From: Promethearchaeota archaeon
GTDB lineage: Archaea > Asgardarchaeota > Lokiarchaeia > Sigyniarchaeales > SOKP01
Assembly: GCA_008080735.1 (NCBI GenBank)
Contig: SHMW01000001.1
Coordinates: 1-64,000, forward strand
DNA: 64,000 nt
Reading direction: 5' to 3'
Shown: positions 11,218 through 53,318 of the stretch, piece by piece
How the letters are laid out: the number at the start of each line of letters is the position of its first letter
How positions within the stretch are numbered: the first letter of the stretch is position 1
Translations under genes and position numbers: made by a program
Notes under the pieces: model-generated
Told to the model about the DNA's origin: nothing
The model's database searches: none
What the model saw: only the letters and a program-made list of their open reading frames with translations

Positions 11218-11422
11218 TTTTCATCATATCTCTGTTTGTGTTATGTGTTAGAAATAGTATATGATGCTTTAGTTAAAAAATCTTTTTTACCGGAATTTCA
11301 AGTGGAGTGAACACGCTTTAAATTGAACAAAACTCACGGGGCAATAAAAAAATCACAAAATTAAAATTTTATATTTCGTTTTACTAATTAAGACCTTGTA
11401 TCATCATGTGCGTAGCAAATAA

Positions 11423-11509
11423 GCCAGAGTCGCTTAGCGGCTGAGCGTCAGCCTGCAGAACTGCTCTCGCAGAAAGTTGATGACGGGGGTTCGAATCCCT
11501 CCTCTGGCT
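11423..11509 (+). tRNA. tRNA-Cys(GCA) with 16-nt intron at 37/38 (11459-11474)
   Basis: Acceptor GCCAGAG/CTCTGGC, U73, T-loop TTCGAAT. CTGC pairs with intron GCAG, followed by an AA|A bulge. Confidence 0.93.
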
Positions 11510-11579
11510 TCAATCCTTTACTTCTCACTGATATCAGAATTGAAAAATTATTACTATTGAAAAAGATAGTTGAATTCAC

Positions 11580-13254: not shown

Positions 13255-14979
13255 ATGGGAGAAGATTATGACTATTTATTCAAATGTATCGTTGTTGGAG
13301 ACGGCGGAGTAGGAAAGACCGCGCTAACGCTGCGATTTAGCAAGGGTTTCTTTACAGAGGATTATAAGATGACGATAGGAGTAGAGTAAGGGAGAGATAC
13401 TGCCTTACGCACAAACTTCCACGTCAAAACTATATCTTTAGACTCTGTTGAGGGCCCAATTAGAGCAAAGCTTCAAATCTGGGATACGGGAGGTCAAGAG
13501 CGTTTTAGTTCAATTCGACCAATGTATTATCGGGGTGCATTAGGCGCGCTCCTCATATTTGATTTAACCTCAATCTCTAGTTTTGAGCATCTACCGCAAT
13601 GGATTGAGGAGGTTCGAGCAAATGTACAGACCGAAATTCCCTTGCTCTTGGTAGGAAACAAAAATGATTTAATTGACCAGAGAGCTATTTCATTGGAGGA
13701 GGTGAATGATTTTACAAGAGATTTTAATTTGTATTATATGGAAACATCAGCAAAGACGGGAGATAATGTAGGTGATTGCTTTAGTGTTTTAGCTAGCCTT
13801 ATGATTCCTGGAAAAGGTGTTCCAGATAAATTGGTTGGGGATGCGATCTACCCTCCTGGACAGATTCCCGTCACTCCGCAAGAAGATACATTAATTCCCC
13901 CAGAAGAGGCAGACCAAACCCAGTATCAAGAGCCCGTCCAACCAGAAGAAGCAACATCCCCCGAGCCAGAGCCAGAATTTGTTCCAGAACCGACACCAGA
14001 ATACGCAGAACCTCCAGAGCCAGAACCGCTTCCCGAAGTCGAACCCGTATCCGAACCACAATATCAGCCCGCTCAAGAACAATATTCCCAATCAGAGGCC
14101 GCTCAACCACAATACCAATCAGAATCAGAACCCAAATCCCAATCACAACAACCAGAGCGGTCGCAACCATCGGAACCGGTATTTTTTGAGCCAGAGATGC
14201 AAGAAGCTGGACCCGATATTCCAGTGCCAGAGCCAGAAGCTCCACAACCAGCCCAGCCAAGTGGTGATTTTGAATTTAAAACACCCGATCAAATAATGGC
14301 AGAAGATCAAAACTTGCAGCAACAAGCCGAGGAAATGTCCGATCTACCTGAGATGCCAACATCATCAGCCACAGAATCATATAAGCCTAAAAGTGTTCCC
14401 TTTTCTTCTGGTGCACCGCAACCTACTGAACCTCCCGAGGAGTTTTCAGCGCCGCAAGAACCTGTTCAACCAACTCAATCAGTGCCGCAACCGCCTCAAC
14501 AAGAGCACCAACCAAAAGGCACAGAATCATTATTTAGTTATATGCCAGAGCCAGAACCAGAACCTGAATCAAAGAAAGGATTTGGGCTTTTCTCACGCAA
14601 GAAGAAAAAAGAAAAAGAAGCCATACCCGAGGAAGAGCCTGAAGAACAAGAACCGAGAGCACCCTCGTTATTCGATACACTTTCGGGCAGGGCGGCAGGC
14701 CAAGGAGCTGGAGGAAGACAAGCTGCTTTCGTACCATTCTCCGCACCGGGGGAAGATTCCCAATCACAAAAACAAAAAGAGGAACGGTCTAACTTACGAA
14801 TAATCCCGAATGCAGAAACTATCGAAGAGGAAACAAACGATTTTGTAGAAATCCCCGCAACAGAATCACAAAATCAACAACAATCTCCAACTGCACCGAC
14901 GATGGTTACTTGTCCGAGCTGTGGGGCACGGTTATCCTCAGAATACGCCTTTTGTAATAAATGTGGTTCTAAACTATAG
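13255..14979 (+). CDS. Rab-like small GTPase + P/E/Q-rich disordered linker + C-terminal Zn ribbon; spliced CDS join(13255-13384,13415-14979), 564 aa
   Basis: MGEDYDYLFKCIVVGDGGVGKT...TIGV[D]FHVK...KLQIWDTGGQERFSSIRPMYYRGA...LIFDLT...GNKND...ETSAK. The ORF track starts only at 13522 because of the in-frame TAA at 13387. Confidence 0.88.
13385..13414 (+). other. Putative bulge-helix-bulge mRNA intron (30 nt)
   Basis: AGTAAGGGAGAGATACTGCCTTACGCACAA. Intron stem GTAAGG/CCTTAC, 3-nt bulges AGA and AAA around GAGT/GCAC. Excision gives GTA GAC TTC (V-D-F). Confidence 0.8.
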
Positions 14980-15117: not shown

Positions 15118-15882
15118 CTAAAATTTATGACCGCAAATTGGGCATACAGACCAGAGCGACTTGATCTGTGAATTACAATCAGGGCATACCTTAAGATCGG
15201 TTTCTTTTTCCGTCTGAGGTTCTCCGAAAATAGTGAAACTCGGACTTTTTTGGGATGTGTTTTGAGAATTTTCTAAATACTCAGTTGCCCCTTTGCTAAA
15301 ATCTACGGGGGGCGTTTGATCGTGTTCAAGACTCCCAGAAGTGTCAGGTTGGAAATATTCTTTCGGTGAGGAAGGTGTGGATGTTATACTTTCTTGAGCA
15401 GGCTCTGAAGACGGGATTTTCTGTTCCTTTGATGGCGGTTCTGCTTTTTCCCTATCCACGCTTCCTACTTGATAAATAAAATATCTTCCTTCATTATTTT
15501 CAATAATCTTTTCATTATCAATTAATTCTACCTCAATATAGTAGATAATTCGTGCTCCTTCGGGAACTTCCATGATTTCTGCGACATAATAATCAGACTT
15601 AAACTCCATTCTCATTTTGTACCATGATTGTCCTTGATCCCCACTAAAGACGAGATTGACGTGCTTGATGGGTTTATCAAAATCCTCTTCGGTCATTTTA
15701 GCAACAATCTTCACATTTTTCTTGATAGAAGATTCATCTGTCCCTACAGCCTCATCCCATGATGCTCCACACTTCGGGCAACTAACAAACCAATTAGGAT
15801 ATTCATATCCGCAACTTGAACACTTTTTAGTGAAATAACGACTTGTCTTGATCCCAAGTTTCGATTTATTTTTTTTGCCCAT
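15118..15882 (-). CDS. Zn-ribbon protein (N- and C-terminal CxxC pairs, central beta-rich domain)
   Basis: CSSCG...CPKCG and CPDCN...CPICG. Confidence 0.75.
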   Translation of the reverse strand: MGKKNKSKLGIKTSRYFTKKCSSCGYEYPNWFVSCPKCGASWDEAVGTDESSIKKNVKIVAKMTEEDFDKPIKHVNLVFSGDQGQSWYKMRMEFKSDYYVAEIMEVPEGARIIYYIEVELIDNEKIIENNEGRYFIYQVGSVDREKAEPPSKEQKIPSSEPAQESITSTPSSPKEYFQPDTSGSLEHDQTPPVDFSKGATEYLENSQNTSQKSPSFTIFGEPQTEKETDLKVCPDCNSQIKSLWSVCPICGHKF

Positions 15883-36737: not shown

Positions 36738-37751
36738 CTAAACCTCTTCTGCGGTAAAGAATCTCTTTATCATTTCCAACGCAAGCATTCTAAATGCATC
36801 ATCGATATTTTCTCCCGTCTTTGCAGAGGTTTCTACATAAGAAACCTCTATTTCTTCCGCCAAGGCCTCTCCCTCCTCACGATTCACTTCTCTTTGATCT
36901 TCTAAATCAATTTTATTACCAACTAAAAGCAATGAAATCTTTGGAGTGACTTCTTTTATCTCCTCATACCAATTTTGAATATTCTCATAGGTTTTATGCC
37001 TCGTCACATCAAATACGAGAATGCCCGCTTCTGCGTTAGCCAGATATGATTTGCGTATTCGACGGAATTGGGTTTGCCCTGCTAAATCCCAGATGACGAA
37101 ACGCACGCTGGACTCAAGTCCTTCAAAATTACACTCCTTTTTCATAATGGAAGTGCCTATTGTGGCTTTATAGTCTTGCTGGAATGAATTCTCTACGAAT
37201 CTATGAACCATACTGGTCTTTCCAACCCCTCCATCCCCGCCTAAAATCAATTTAAACGCATATTCATCAGCTTTGGCTTTAATTTTTCGTAGTTTATCCA
37301 CACTTTTCTCGATTTCTCCGCTTTCTCTGCTAGTAATTATCTTGGGTATAACGGGGCTTACGGGACGTCCATCAAAAATTCGAGCTATTTTTTCGGCGGT
37401 TAAATATGCGACGGGAAACACAGGATCGATCATAGCTAACGCATCGAGAACCGTTACAAAGACCGCATGTTCACCTGCCTCACAAAATATAAGGCGGTAT
37501 TCATCTGTATCAAATGTTCCCGTGCCAAAAGATCCTGAACTGAATTCTTTCGTGATGCGATTAAGGACTGGCTCTACTAATGAGCTTAGTCCGCCCACAA
37601 CATCCTCTTCTACGGACTTGCCAGTAGTCCCCGAGACAGCATCCATAATTAGTCCTTCTCGGTTAACAATAATCGCCGCAACTAAATCCTCTTCGATTTC
37701 CTGACGATACCATTTTAAAAGCGCTTTTAATTTTTCCCTATCTACAGCCAT
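36738..37751 (-). CDS. Roadblock/LC7 domain fused to Rab-like small GTPase
   Basis: AAIIVNREGLIM roadblock N-terminus, then GDGGVGKT, WDLAGQ, GNKID, ETSAK. Confidence 0.9.
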   Translation of the reverse strand: MAVDREKLKALLKWYRQEIEEDLVAAIIVNREGLIMDAVSGTTGKSVEEDVVGGLSSLVEPVLNRITKEFSSGSFGTGTFDTDEYRLIFCEAGEHAVFVTVLDALAMIDPVFPVAYLTAEKIARIFDGRPVSPVIPKIITSRESGEIEKSVDKLRKIKAKADEYAFKLILGGDGGVGKTSMVHRFVENSFQQDYKATIGTSIMKKECNFEGLESSVRFVIWDLAGQTQFRRIRKSYLANAEAGILVFDVTRHKTYENIQNWYEEIKEVTPKISLLLVGNKIDLEDQREVNREEGEALAEEIEVSYVETSAKTGENIDDAFRMLALEMIKRFFTAEEV

Positions 37752-51375: not shown

Positions 51376-51813
51376 ATGAAAGATAGTGGATTTGAGTTTC
51401 TGGAACATACCGCAGACGTGAAGGCGCGAGCATATGGACCCAGTCTTGAAATCGCCTATTCTCAAGCTGCATATGCCCTAATGGCAACTATAACTCCAGA
51501 TCTAAGCAAGATTTCCAAAAAACGTGAAAAAATGTTTACAATAGCGGCTGAAGATGAAGAAGCTCTTCTTTTTGATTTTCTCTCAGAACTTCTTTATATC
51601 TTTGATGTAGATCATCTCGTATTTGGGGACATAACGGTGGAATCCATTGAAGAAAAAGGGCAGGAATATGAACTTAGCACAATTTTAATTGGAGAGGAAT
51701 TTGATAAAAATAAACACGAAATTGGTACTGAGGTTAAAGCTATTACTTATTCCTATATGAAAATTGAAGAAAAAGGAGATCTATGGGAAATTGAAGTGGT
51801 TTTTGATATTTAA
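51376..51813 (+). CDS. Archease
   Basis: FEFLEHTADV, LLFDFLSEL, EVKAITY, VFDI. Confidence 0.95.
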   Translation: MKDSGFEFLEHTADVKARAYGPSLEIAYSQAAYALMATITPDLSKISKKREKMFTIAAEDEEALLFDFLSELLYIFDVDHLVFGDITVESIEEKGQEYELSTILIGEEFDKNKHEIGTEVKAITYSYMKIEEKGDLWEIEVVFDI

Positions 51814-51839: not shown

Positions 51840-53318
51840 TTAGCCTTTGACGACACCAACAGGATGCATTCTCGCAACTTTCTCTATTAGATTAAGACGC
51901 GATTGAATTTTTACCACTTGATTTATGTCTTTATATGCACCTGGAGCTTCCTCTGCAATAACTTTTTGTGATTTTGCTTTCACAAGAATTCCCTTTTTTT
52001 CTAACCCTTTTTCAATATCCTCTCCCCAATAGGCATTCTTTGCCCGAGATCTTGACATTACCCTCCCCGAACCGTGTGCGGTCGAACCAAATGTGAGATT
52101 CATGGAATCTTTCCTTCCCACACATAAATATGAGGCGGAACCCATGGTTCCTGGAATTAATACGGGTTGTCCTATTGATTTATAGCTTTTAGGCAACACC
52201 GAATGATTCGGAGGGAATGCTCGTGTTGCTCCTTTCCTGTGAATATTGAGTTCCATATTCTTCCCGTCAACTAGGTGTGTTTCCTTTTTAAGAATATTAT
52301 GACATAAATCATAAATTAATTCTAATTCATATTCTTGGCTCTCGTTTCCAAAGACTTCCTTAAAGGATTCTCTAATCCAAAAGGTAATGAGCTGTCTGTT
52401 GCAAAATCCAAAATTTGCCGCACAAGCCATCTCTTTAAAATATTTTTGGGCTTCTTCGGTATTTGCAGGCACGCATGATAATTCTCTATCGGGAATTTTA
52501 ATATTATATCGTTTCATGGCTTTTTCAAATTCACGCACTGATTCTGTGCAAACTTGATGCCCCAAAGCCCTGCTACCGGTATGAATCATTACCATAATTT
52601 GGTCTTTCTGTGTGATCCCCAATTCTTTTGCAATCTTTTTATTGTAGATTTTATCTACTTTCTGCACTTCGAGGAAATGATTTCCACTTCCTAAGCTTCC
52701 TAATTGTCTAATACCTCGCTGTTTTGCACGCTTTGAAACAATATTGTGGTCTGCATCTTCTAATCTGCCGTTTTCCTCACAAAACTCAATATCTTCGTCC
52801 GTTGCAAATTCATGTTCACGTGCCCATTCCACACCCATATCAAGCACCGAATTCAATTGATTATAATCTATCTTCAGCCTCCCTCTTGAGCCCAAACCCG
52901 AAGGAATTCGATTAAATATATAAGTCAATAAAGTGGGAAGCTTACTTTGTATATCTTCATAGCTCATTTCAGTTCTCAATAGTCTCACTCCGCAATTTAT
53001 ATCATACCCTACACCGCCAGGTGAGATCATCCCATCTTCGGAATCTGTCCCGCACACCGCCCCTATACAGAAGCCATACCCTTGATGAGCATCAGAAAGC
53101 GCAATCACATGCTTTTCTACTCCATCTAAACACGCTACATTACTAATCTGTTCTAATGTTCTATCTTCTTGAATTTTTGATAATATTTCCTCATTTGCAT
53201 AGATATGAACAGGAACTTTCATTTTAAAGCTTTCAATCGTCCCTGAAACTCTGGCCATTAGTCTTTTTGGCGGAATTTCATAAATATACTCATCGATTTT
53301 ATTTACATTCATGTTCAT
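51840..53318 (-). CDS. rtcB: RNA-splicing ligase RtcB
   Basis: DAHQGYGF, GVGYDINCGVR, GSGNHF, HTGSR, HN, HRKGATRA, PGTMG, AHGSGR, EEAPGAYK. Confidence 0.96.
   Translation of the reverse strand: MNMNVNKIDEYIYEIPPKRLMARVSGTIESFKMKVPVHIYANEEILSKIQEDRTLEQISNVACLDGVEKHVIALSDAHQGYGFCIGAVCGTDSEDGMISPGGVGYDINCGVRLLRTEMSYEDIQSKLPTLLTYIFNRIPSGLGSRGRLKIDYNQLNSVLDMGVEWAREHEFATDEDIEFCEENGRLEDADHNIVSKRAKQRGIRQLGSLGSGNHFLEVQKVDKIYNKKIAKELGITQKDQIMVMIHTGSRALGHQVCTESVREFEKAMKRYNIKIPDRELSCVPANTEEAQKYFKEMACAANFGFCNRQLITFWIRESFKEVFGNESQEYELELIYDLCHNILKKETHLVDGKNMELNIHRKGATRAFPPNHSVLPKSYKSIGQPVLIPGTMGSASYLCVGRKDSMNLTFGSTAHGSGRVMSRSRAKNAYWGEDIEKGLEKKGILVKAKSQKVIAEEAPGAYKDINQVVKIQSRLNLIEKVARMHPVGVVKG

What the first reader, a model, noticed from the sequence alone, without database searches (positions are those of the whole stretch)
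13255..14979. Rab-like GTPase gene split by a bulge-helix-bulge mRNA intron inside the IGVDF switch-I motif
Seen: the frame from ATG 13255 reads ...GDGGVGKT...EDYKMTIGV-E*GRDTALRTN-FHVKTISL...KLQIWDTGGQERFSSIRPMYYRGA, i.e. a 30-nt in-frame insert carrying TAA (13387-13389). The insert folds with BHB geometry: outer exon helices TGACG/CGTCA (13370-74/13422-26) and AG/CT; central 4-nt helix GAGT/GCAC (3 of 4 paired); 3-nt bulges AGA (13383-85) and AAA (13413-15); intron stem GTAAGG/CCTTAC. Cutting after the 2nd base of each bulge removes 13385-13414 and yields GGA GTA GAC TTC (G-V-D-F). All five RabF-like motifs are then present (IGVDF, KLQIW, RFSSI, YYRGA, LIFDLT). Established: EndA cuts BHBs at these positions, RtcB ligates, and the classic archaeal mRNA example is crenarchaeal cbf5. 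Inference: an Asgard eukaryote-signature GTPase is switched between a 44-aa dead peptide and a 564-aa protein by tRNA-type mRNA splicing, conceptually like HAC1/XBP1. Gene callers would miss or truncate it.
Basis: partly seen in the sequence, partly recalled or inferred. Interest (0 to 1): 0.97.

Follow-up and report, generated by a model that had tools for sequence, protein, structure and literature searches.

The report
tRNA-type mini-intron in Asgard Rab gene
A Rab-like GTPase gene of a Loki-type Asgard archaeon is interrupted by a 30-base insert shaped like a tRNA intron, and related genomes indicate that the tRNA-splicing enzymes cut it out of the mRNA, which published work I could search reports for only one archaeal protein gene (cbf5).

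Summary
A 564-codon Rab-like gene (13255-14979, +) carries a 30-nt insert (13385-13414) with an in-frame TAA, inside the IGVDF motif.

Eight other assemblies have an insert at the same site: four Promethearchaeota genomes and four metagenome contigs. There it is 31 nt and shifts the frame. Only excision at the bulge-helix-bulge (BHB) cut points restores G-V-D-F.

- **Structure:** the predicted helices show compensatory changes. 85% of cells pair, against 33-61% in slid controls.
- **Selection:** the insert changes more slowly than synonymous sites. The host genes are under strong purifying selection (dN/dS 0.03-0.05).
- **Distribution:** at least 29 sequenced orthologues lack the insert exactly.
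- **Machinery:** the genome encodes EndA alpha and beta, two RtcB and archease.
- **Second case:** I confirmed an intron of the same build in the RNase HII gene of the same contig.

The best reading is a genuine EndA/RtcB-spliced mRNA intron, probably removed constitutively.

No RNA data could be examined, so splicing is inferred, not shown. This scan had already found the same Rab intron on other genomes, and similar mini-introns in other genes of this genome.

The parts
13255..13384 (+). Exon 1: start codon to the first base (G) of the split Asp codon. Encodes the P-loop GDGGVGKT and T-I-G-V of switch I.
13385..13414 (+). 30-nt intron, with cuts after the 2nd base of each bulge. Because of a shared A, 13386-13415 gives the same product. 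It contains an in-frame TAA at 13387-13389.
   Evidence: same-site 31-nt introns
13415..14979 (+). Exon 2: AC of the Asp codon to the TAG stop. Encodes the rest of the GTPase domain, a roughly 360-aa Pro/Glu/Gln-rich tail and a C-terminal zinc ribbon (about 14902-14976).
13379..13382 (+). 5' strand of the central 4-bp helix (exon, GAGU). It pairs with 13409-13412.
13409..13412 (+). 3' strand of the central helix (intron, GCAC).
13383..13385 (+). 5' three-base bulge AGA; predicted cut after 13384.
13413..13415 (+). 3' three-base bulge AAA; predicted cut after 13414.
13386..13408 (+). Intron hairpin: 6-bp stem 13386-91 / 13403-08 with an 11-nt loop.
13377..13378 (+). Short outer (exon-exon) helix, pairing with 13416-13417. 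The G-C pair is invariant in all 9 intron-bearing genes.
51843..53150 (-). RtcB RNA ligase gene, one of two in the genome. Presumed exon-joining enzyme acting in trans.
51391..51810 (+). Archease gene (RtcB cofactor), divergent neighbour of RtcB.

Best explanation
The 30 nt at 13385-13414 are an archaeal bulge-helix-bulge intron inside a protein-coding gene.

In the pre-mRNA, four exon bases (GAGU, from the Gly-Val codons) pair with four bases near the intron's 3' end. The intron's own hairpin stacks on one side, and a short exon-exon helix closed by a G-C pair stacks on the other. This leaves two 3-base bulges on opposite strands.

The heterotetrameric splicing endonuclease (EndA alpha2-beta2) cuts after the second base of each bulge. 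RtcB, with archease, joins the exons and probably circularises the intron. The spliced mRNA encodes a 564-aa Rab-like GTPase with an intact switch I.

Shown here: anatomy, conservation, covariation, selection and the presence of the enzymes. Inferred: the cutting and joining themselves, and that removal is constitutive.
For: 1. Anatomy and coordinates are confirmed.
2. Eight further versions sit at the identical codon position. They come from four Promethearchaeota MAGs of another genus and four metagenome contigs, including Loki's Castle. All are 31 nt and shift the frame, so only excision at the BHB cut points restores G-V-D-F.
3. On the 9-sequence alignment 85% of cells pair, against 33-61% for slid partners. 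Five pairs change on both sides, and 0 of 500 shuffles reach the covariation score. The wobble base of the Gly codon covaries with its intron partner (C-G, U-A).
4. The Asp codon is GAC in 9 of 9 intron-bearing genes against 4 of 29 intronless ones. Its C closes the outer G-C pair.
5. Intron-bearing gene pairs have dN/dS of 0.025-0.05. Their introns differ at 2-3 of 31 bases where 24-26% of synonymous sites differ.
6. Twenty-nine sequenced orthologues lack the insert exactly, and 115 of 135 family genomes hold an uninterrupted TIGVDF-coding match (this count includes paralogues). Intron-bearing genes lie in three clades of the gene tree.
7. The genome has a catalytic and a non-catalytic EndA paralogue, two RtcB and archease. 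Asgard EndA is reported as the broad-specificity (alpha-beta)2 type (PMC5829648).
8. A second intron of the same build and cut rule sits in RNase HII on the same contig. It is 28-31 nt in 8 of 12 orthologues and exactly absent in 4.
Against:
- In this genome the central helix has an A.A mismatch, and the outer helix is only 2 bp. This makes it a relaxed BHB.
- Free-energy folding prefers a slightly different register. The BHB-constrained fold is -11.6 kcal/mol against an MFE of -18.7.
- The nine sequences represent only about four or five independent lineages.
- Cleavage of this substrate by an Asgard EndA has never been tested.
Confidence: 0.85

Rival explanations
1. Same splicing chemistry, but used as a regulated on/off switch. 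The mRNA stays unspliced and yields a 44-aa peptide until a signal triggers EndA/RtcB splicing, like HAC1/XBP1.
For: The unspliced frame ends after 44 codons. The authors of the cbf5 study proposed that their intron acts as a negative regulator of expression (PMC2738675). In this genome the central helix has an A.A mismatch, which could make cleavage inefficient.
Against: No sensor or condition is known. The RNA has BHB geometry, not the twin 7-nt loops cut by Ire1. Most orthologues work without the intron. The housekeeping RNase HII gene carries the same kind of intron, so a gene-specific switch is not needed to explain it.
Confidence: 0.08
2. The gene is a decaying pseudogene broken by a small insertion.
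For: There is an in-frame stop here and a frameshift in the relatives.
Against: The 521 codons after the insert remain open in a 34% GC genome. dN/dS is 0.025-0.05 between intron-bearing genes while synonymous sites diverge by 24-26% or are saturated. The insert stays at one exact site, with a conserved structure, across lineages.
Confidence: 0.03
3. The ribosome deals with the insert itself, by stop-codon read-through or by translational bypassing as in phage T4 gene 60.
For: A stop codon directly follows the break and a hairpin follows it. This superficially resembles a bypass element.
Against: The Asp codon is split G|AC between the flanks. No matching take-off and landing codons exist. The 31-nt versions would also need a frame change. 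Read-through would put 10 foreign residues into switch I.
Confidence: 0.02
4. Assembly or sequencing artefact.
For: None beyond the fact that this is a metagenome-assembled genome (7% contamination).
Against: Nine independent assemblies carry an insert at the same site, with diverged sequences.
Confidence: 0.01

Closest known systems
BHB intron in the cbf5 pre-mRNA of Crenarchaeota (Watanabe 2002; Yokobori 2009, PMC2738675)
   Same: A short intron inside an archaeal protein-coding sequence. It has a BHB-type structure, disrupts the frame, is removed by the tRNA-splicing endonuclease, and has a patchy distribution explained by an old gain and repeated exact loss.
   Different: The gene is different (a Rab-like GTPase, a eukaryotic signature protein). 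The phylum is different (Asgard/Promethearchaeota). It is one of at least two, and possibly many, such introns in the same genome. Splicing is not yet shown experimentally here.
Non-canonical tRNA introns of Asgard and TACK archaea, cut by (alpha-beta)2 EndA with the L1 loop (PMC5829648; bioRxiv 10.64898/2026.10.13.758758)
   Same: The same motif, cut rule and enzymes. The size range overlaps the 7-52 nt that ARAGORN calls in this genome. [quoted passage not shown]
   Different: The host RNA is an mRNA. The exon half of the motif is therefore made of codons and is constrained by protein sequence and codon choice.
HAC1/XBP1 unconventional mRNA splicing (Ire1 plus tRNA ligase/RtcB)
   Same: Spliceosome-independent cut-and-ligate removal of a short intron from an mRNA, changing the protein made. 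RtcB is the ligase in metazoa.
   Different: The nuclease is different (Ire1 KEN domain versus EndA). The RNA motif is different (two 7-nt loops versus BHB). HAC1/XBP1 splicing is stress-regulated; no regulation is indicated here.
Thorarchaeota Rab (PDB 7ezb) and eukaryotic Rab2/8/1/11
   Same: These are the best sequence matches of the GTPase domain (E 1e-40 to 1e-36). After splicing, RabF1-F5-like motifs are present.
   Different: The protein has a roughly 360-aa disordered tail ending in a zinc ribbon, in place of prenylated cysteines.

Membership tests
Archaeal BHB (EndA/RtcB-spliced) intron | [quoted passage not shown] | tested here: met
   Bulges at 13383-85 and 13413-15. The central helix is 3 of 4 paired here and 4 of 4 in six of the nine variants.
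Archaeal BHB (EndA/RtcB-spliced) intron | Flanking helices: intron helix h' and exon helix h | tested here: inconclusive
   h' is present in all nine and has compensatory changes. h is only 1-2 bp (an invariant G-C, then A-U or U.U), so this is a relaxed form of the kind described for (alpha-beta)2 EndA substrates.
Archaeal BHB (EndA/RtcB-spliced) intron | Cuts inside the bulges give a functional joined RNA | tested here: met
   A cut after base 2 of each bulge restores G-V-D-F for the 30-nt form. For the 31-nt forms this is the only junction that works. The exact cut position in the bulge is from my own knowledge of EndA-RNA structures.
Archaeal BHB (EndA/RtcB-spliced) intron | Splicing enzymes encoded by the genome | tested here: met
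   EndA alpha-like (Tyr/His/Lys motif) and beta-like paralogues, two RtcB and archease.
Archaeal BHB (EndA/RtcB-spliced) intron | Spliced RNA and excised (circular) intron exist in vivo | not testable with these tools
Rab-like small GTPase (Ras superfamily) | G1-G5 nucleotide-binding motifs and the Ras-family profile | tested here: met
   Pfam Ras E 2.4e-49. GDGGVGKT, DTGGQ, GNKND and ETSAK are read directly.
Rab-like small GTPase (Ras superfamily) | RabF1-F5 motifs | tested here: met
   IGVDF (after splicing), KLQIWDTGGQE, RFSSIR, YYRGA and LIFDLT. The motif definitions are from my own knowledge (Pereira-Leal and Seabra).
Rab-like small GTPase (Ras superfamily) | C-terminal prenylation cysteines | tested here: not met
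   The C-terminus is a four-Cys zinc ribbon (Pfam Zn_Ribbon_1, E 5e-6). So it is Rab-like, not a canonical Rab.
HAC1/XBP1-type regulated splicing | Ire1-type nuclease and twin 7-nt loop cut sites | tested here: not met
   The RNA motif here is a BHB. No KEN-domain match was found in the genome, but the control rang nowhere, so that search is uninformative.
Translational bypass element (T4 gene 60 type) | Matching take-off and landing codons flanking the gap | tested here: not met
   The Asp codon is split G|AC and no repeated codon sits at the borders.

The most novel reading that the evidence does not exclude
This family of Promethearchaeota carries a whole population of 28-37-nt EndA/RtcB-spliced mini-introns inside protein-coding genes. 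The Rab-like GTPase and RNase HII were verified here; many more were flagged by the scan. These introns would be old, kept foldable by selection on codons, and repeatedly lost exactly. That would make protein-enzyme mRNA splicing a routine step of gene expression in close archaeal relatives of eukaryotes.
Probability: 0.6. Interest if true: 0.92.

Novelty: new member of a known kind. Interest (0 to 1): 0.8.

Why it matters
In the papers I could search, cbf5 is the only documented archaeal protein gene with an endonuclease-spliced intron. No searchable paper reports such introns in Asgard protein genes.

Here a eukaryote-signature GTPase needs mRNA splicing to be made at all. At least one housekeeping gene on the same contig does too.

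If confirmed at the RNA level:
- Gene callers systematically truncate or drop such genes in Asgard genomes.
- Transcription and translation cannot be fully coupled for these mRNAs, which bears on ideas about why a nucleus evolved.
- The system gives a tractable case of intron gain, maintenance and exact loss in the closest prokaryotic relatives of eukaryotes.

Tried and rejected
- **Genome-wide census:** three scripts combined BHB geometry with an ORF-restoration test. They gave 587-646 hits against 526-717 in frame-shifted controls, so there was no usable excess. Adjacent genes swamp the signal, and I dropped the census.
- **Other Ras paralogues:** six paralogues flagged with 'stops inside' were fetched. 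They are uninterrupted; the stops lie past their ends.
- **Spliced product in protein databases:** the large protein collection holds no near-identical uninterrupted copy of this gene's product. The nearest are 87-88% identical intronless relatives.
- **Spliceosomal reading:** the GTAAG at the intron start resembles a eukaryotic 5' splice site. However, there is no 3' AG, and the other eight variants lack the GT.
- **Mobile element:** there is no target-site duplication and no terminal repeats.
- **Group I/II intron:** 30 nt is far too short.
- **Distal helix:** the 13370-74 / 13422-26 pairing depends on a Val codon that varies among the other variants (GTC, GTG, GTT, GTA), so it is not conserved.
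- **Ire1 search:** uninformative, because the control rang nowhere.

Full report
**What is in the sequence.** The plus strand from ATG 13255 encodes a Ras-superfamily GTPase. The frame runs into TAA at 13387-13389 after 44 codons, then stays open in the same frame to TAG at 14977-14979. I read the stop as X and compared the result with Pfam Ras (E 2.4e-49) and with solved Rab structures. The best match is Thorarchaeota Rab 7ezb (E 1e-40), followed by Rab2A, Rab8A and Rab1. Removing 13385-13414 joins G to AC and gives G-V-D-F and a 564-aa product. Downstream of the GTPase domain lie a long Pro/Glu/Gln-rich tail and a C-terminal zinc ribbon.

**Is it more than chance?** The 65-nt region folds better than all 200 shuffles (z = -4.2). 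My BHB geometry filter, which this site passes, accepts about 2.4 per 10,000 position/length combinations in the genome. Only two combinations restore the motif.

**Comparative evidence.** In 40 relatives of the same order, about 18 orthologues (76-87% identical) read TIGVDFHVKT without interruption. One genome of another genus has an insert at the identical position. That insert is 31 nt, so exon 2 lies in another frame.

A degenerate DNA pattern for the flanking codons found more copies:
- Five of 135 genomes of the family have the insert. These are this genome and four in one other genus, deposited as Promethearchaeota or "Hermodarchaeota" MAGs.
- Four metagenome contigs have it, one of them from the Loki's Castle assembly.

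All eight additional inserts are 31 nt. For them, the only excision that restores G-V-D-F is a cut after the second base of each predicted bulge. Read-through, bypassing and assembly error are therefore excluded as general explanations.

**Structure.** I applied one geometric model to all nine sequences: a 4-bp central helix between exon GNGU and the intron's 3' part, 3-nt bulges, an intron hairpin, and an exon-exon closing pair.
- The central helix is fully paired in six sequences. It has an A.A mismatch in three, including this window.
- The variable base of this helix is the wobble position of the Gly codon. It is C with intron G in two sequences and U with intron A in four.
- The first pairs of the intron hairpin also switch between G-C, U-A and C-G.
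- On the alignment, 85% of cells pair, against 33-61% when partners are slid. Five pairs change on both sides, and no shuffle in 500 reaches the covariation score.
- The closing G-C pair beyond the 3' bulge is invariant. Its C is the third base of the Asp codon, which is GAC in 9 of 9 intron-bearing genes but in only 4 of 29 intronless orthologues.
- The outer helix is short, so this is a relaxed BHB. Plain energy minimisation prefers a shifted register in several sequences.
- Asgard archaea are reported to have the (alpha-beta)2 endonuclease with the L1 loop, which is associated with cutting relaxed motifs (PMC5829648).

**Selection.**
- Pairs of intron-bearing genes have dN/dS of 0.025-0.05, with dS about 0.3.
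- Between more distant pairs, synonymous sites are saturated while proteins stay about 90% identical.
- The introns of those close pairs differ at 2-3 of 31 bases, while 24-26% of synonymous sites differ. The intron is therefore itself constrained.
- This rules out a pseudogene.

**Distribution.** In a maximum-likelihood tree of the GTPase domain, intron-bearing genes fall in three places:
- this genome, among intronless members of its own genus;
- three metagenome contigs, next to an intronless genus;
- three basal lineages of a third genus, whose larger derived clade is intronless.

The introns of the last two groups are about 77% identical although their host genes are saturated at synonymous sites. 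They are therefore homologous. The 30-nt intron here is more diverged, and its homology is uncertain. An old intron with repeated exact loss fits best, as proposed for cbf5 (PMC2738675). Repeated gain at a permissive site is not excluded.

**Machinery.** The genome encodes:
- two EndA paralogues, one with the Tyr/His/Lys catalytic pattern and one without the His;
- two RtcB ligases, one of them in this window at 51843-53150;
- an archease next to that RtcB, at 51391-51810.

ARAGORN finds only 30 tRNA genes in the 4.1-Mb assembly, and 18 of them need an intron call. This agrees with published reports of heavily interrupted Asgard tRNA genes.

**A second case.** Following a lead from the scan's notes, I checked the RNase HII gene 21 kb beyond the window on the same contig. 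Its invariant GIDEAG-R-GP motif is split by 30 nt with tandem stops. Eight of twelve orthologues carry an insert of 28-31 nt at the same point, again after AG and before an A preceded by AA. Its central helix changes in step with the exon. Four orthologues lack it exactly. The Rab intron is thus one of a class, which argues against a gene-specific switch.

**What is not shown.** No RNA data could be examined, so cleavage, ligation and their efficiency are inferred. The HAC1/XBP1 analogy holds only for the chemistry (endonuclease plus RtcB-type ligase). Regulation is speculation. My attempts at a genome-wide count failed against controls.

**Literature and earlier scan notes.** Searches of the held library found BHB introns in archaeal coding sequences only for cbf5. 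They found nothing on Asgard protein genes. The scan had already reported this same Rab intron on two other genomes, and similar mini-introns in other genes of this genome. My tests were made independently and agree with those notes.

**Verdict.** This is a real feature. It is very probably a constitutively spliced tRNA-type mRNA intron, and a new member of the kind known so far only from cbf5.

Noticed in passing
G000 contig C1 84792-85508 (outside the window; loci L169, L170): The RNase HII gene is split inside GIDEAG-R-GP by a 30-nt BHB-type insert with tandem stops. Orthologues carry 28-31-nt versions at the same site (8 of 12) or lack it exactly (4 of 12).
   Followed up: yes
window 51391-51810 (+) and 51843-53150 (-): A divergent archease-RtcB gene pair, the RNA ligase module expected to join exons. 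A second RtcB lies on contig C10.
   Followed up: partly
window 11422-11511 (+): tRNA-Cys(GCA) is 90 nt long, with about 17 extra bases modelled by ARAGORN as a long variable arm. This is probably a non-canonical intron.
   Followed up: no
whole genome G000: ARAGORN finds only 30 tRNA genes in 4.1 Mb (93% complete), and 18 of them need an intron call of 7-52 nt. The tRNA genes seem heavily interrupted and many are probably missed.
   Followed up: partly
window 36768-37265 (-): A second Ras/Rab-like GTPase domain (44% identical) in a 338-aa open frame, uninterrupted.
   Followed up: no
window 15118-15882 (-): The convergent neighbour encodes a 254-aa protein with CxxC zinc ribbons at both ends, resembling the zinc-ribbon tail of the Rab-like protein.
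   Followed up: no
L145, L148, L157, L162 (genomes G016, G063, G097, G084): A short (about 179 aa) paralogue shares the TIGVDFHVK coding sequence but never carries the intron. It forms a separate, long-branched clade.
   Followed up: partly
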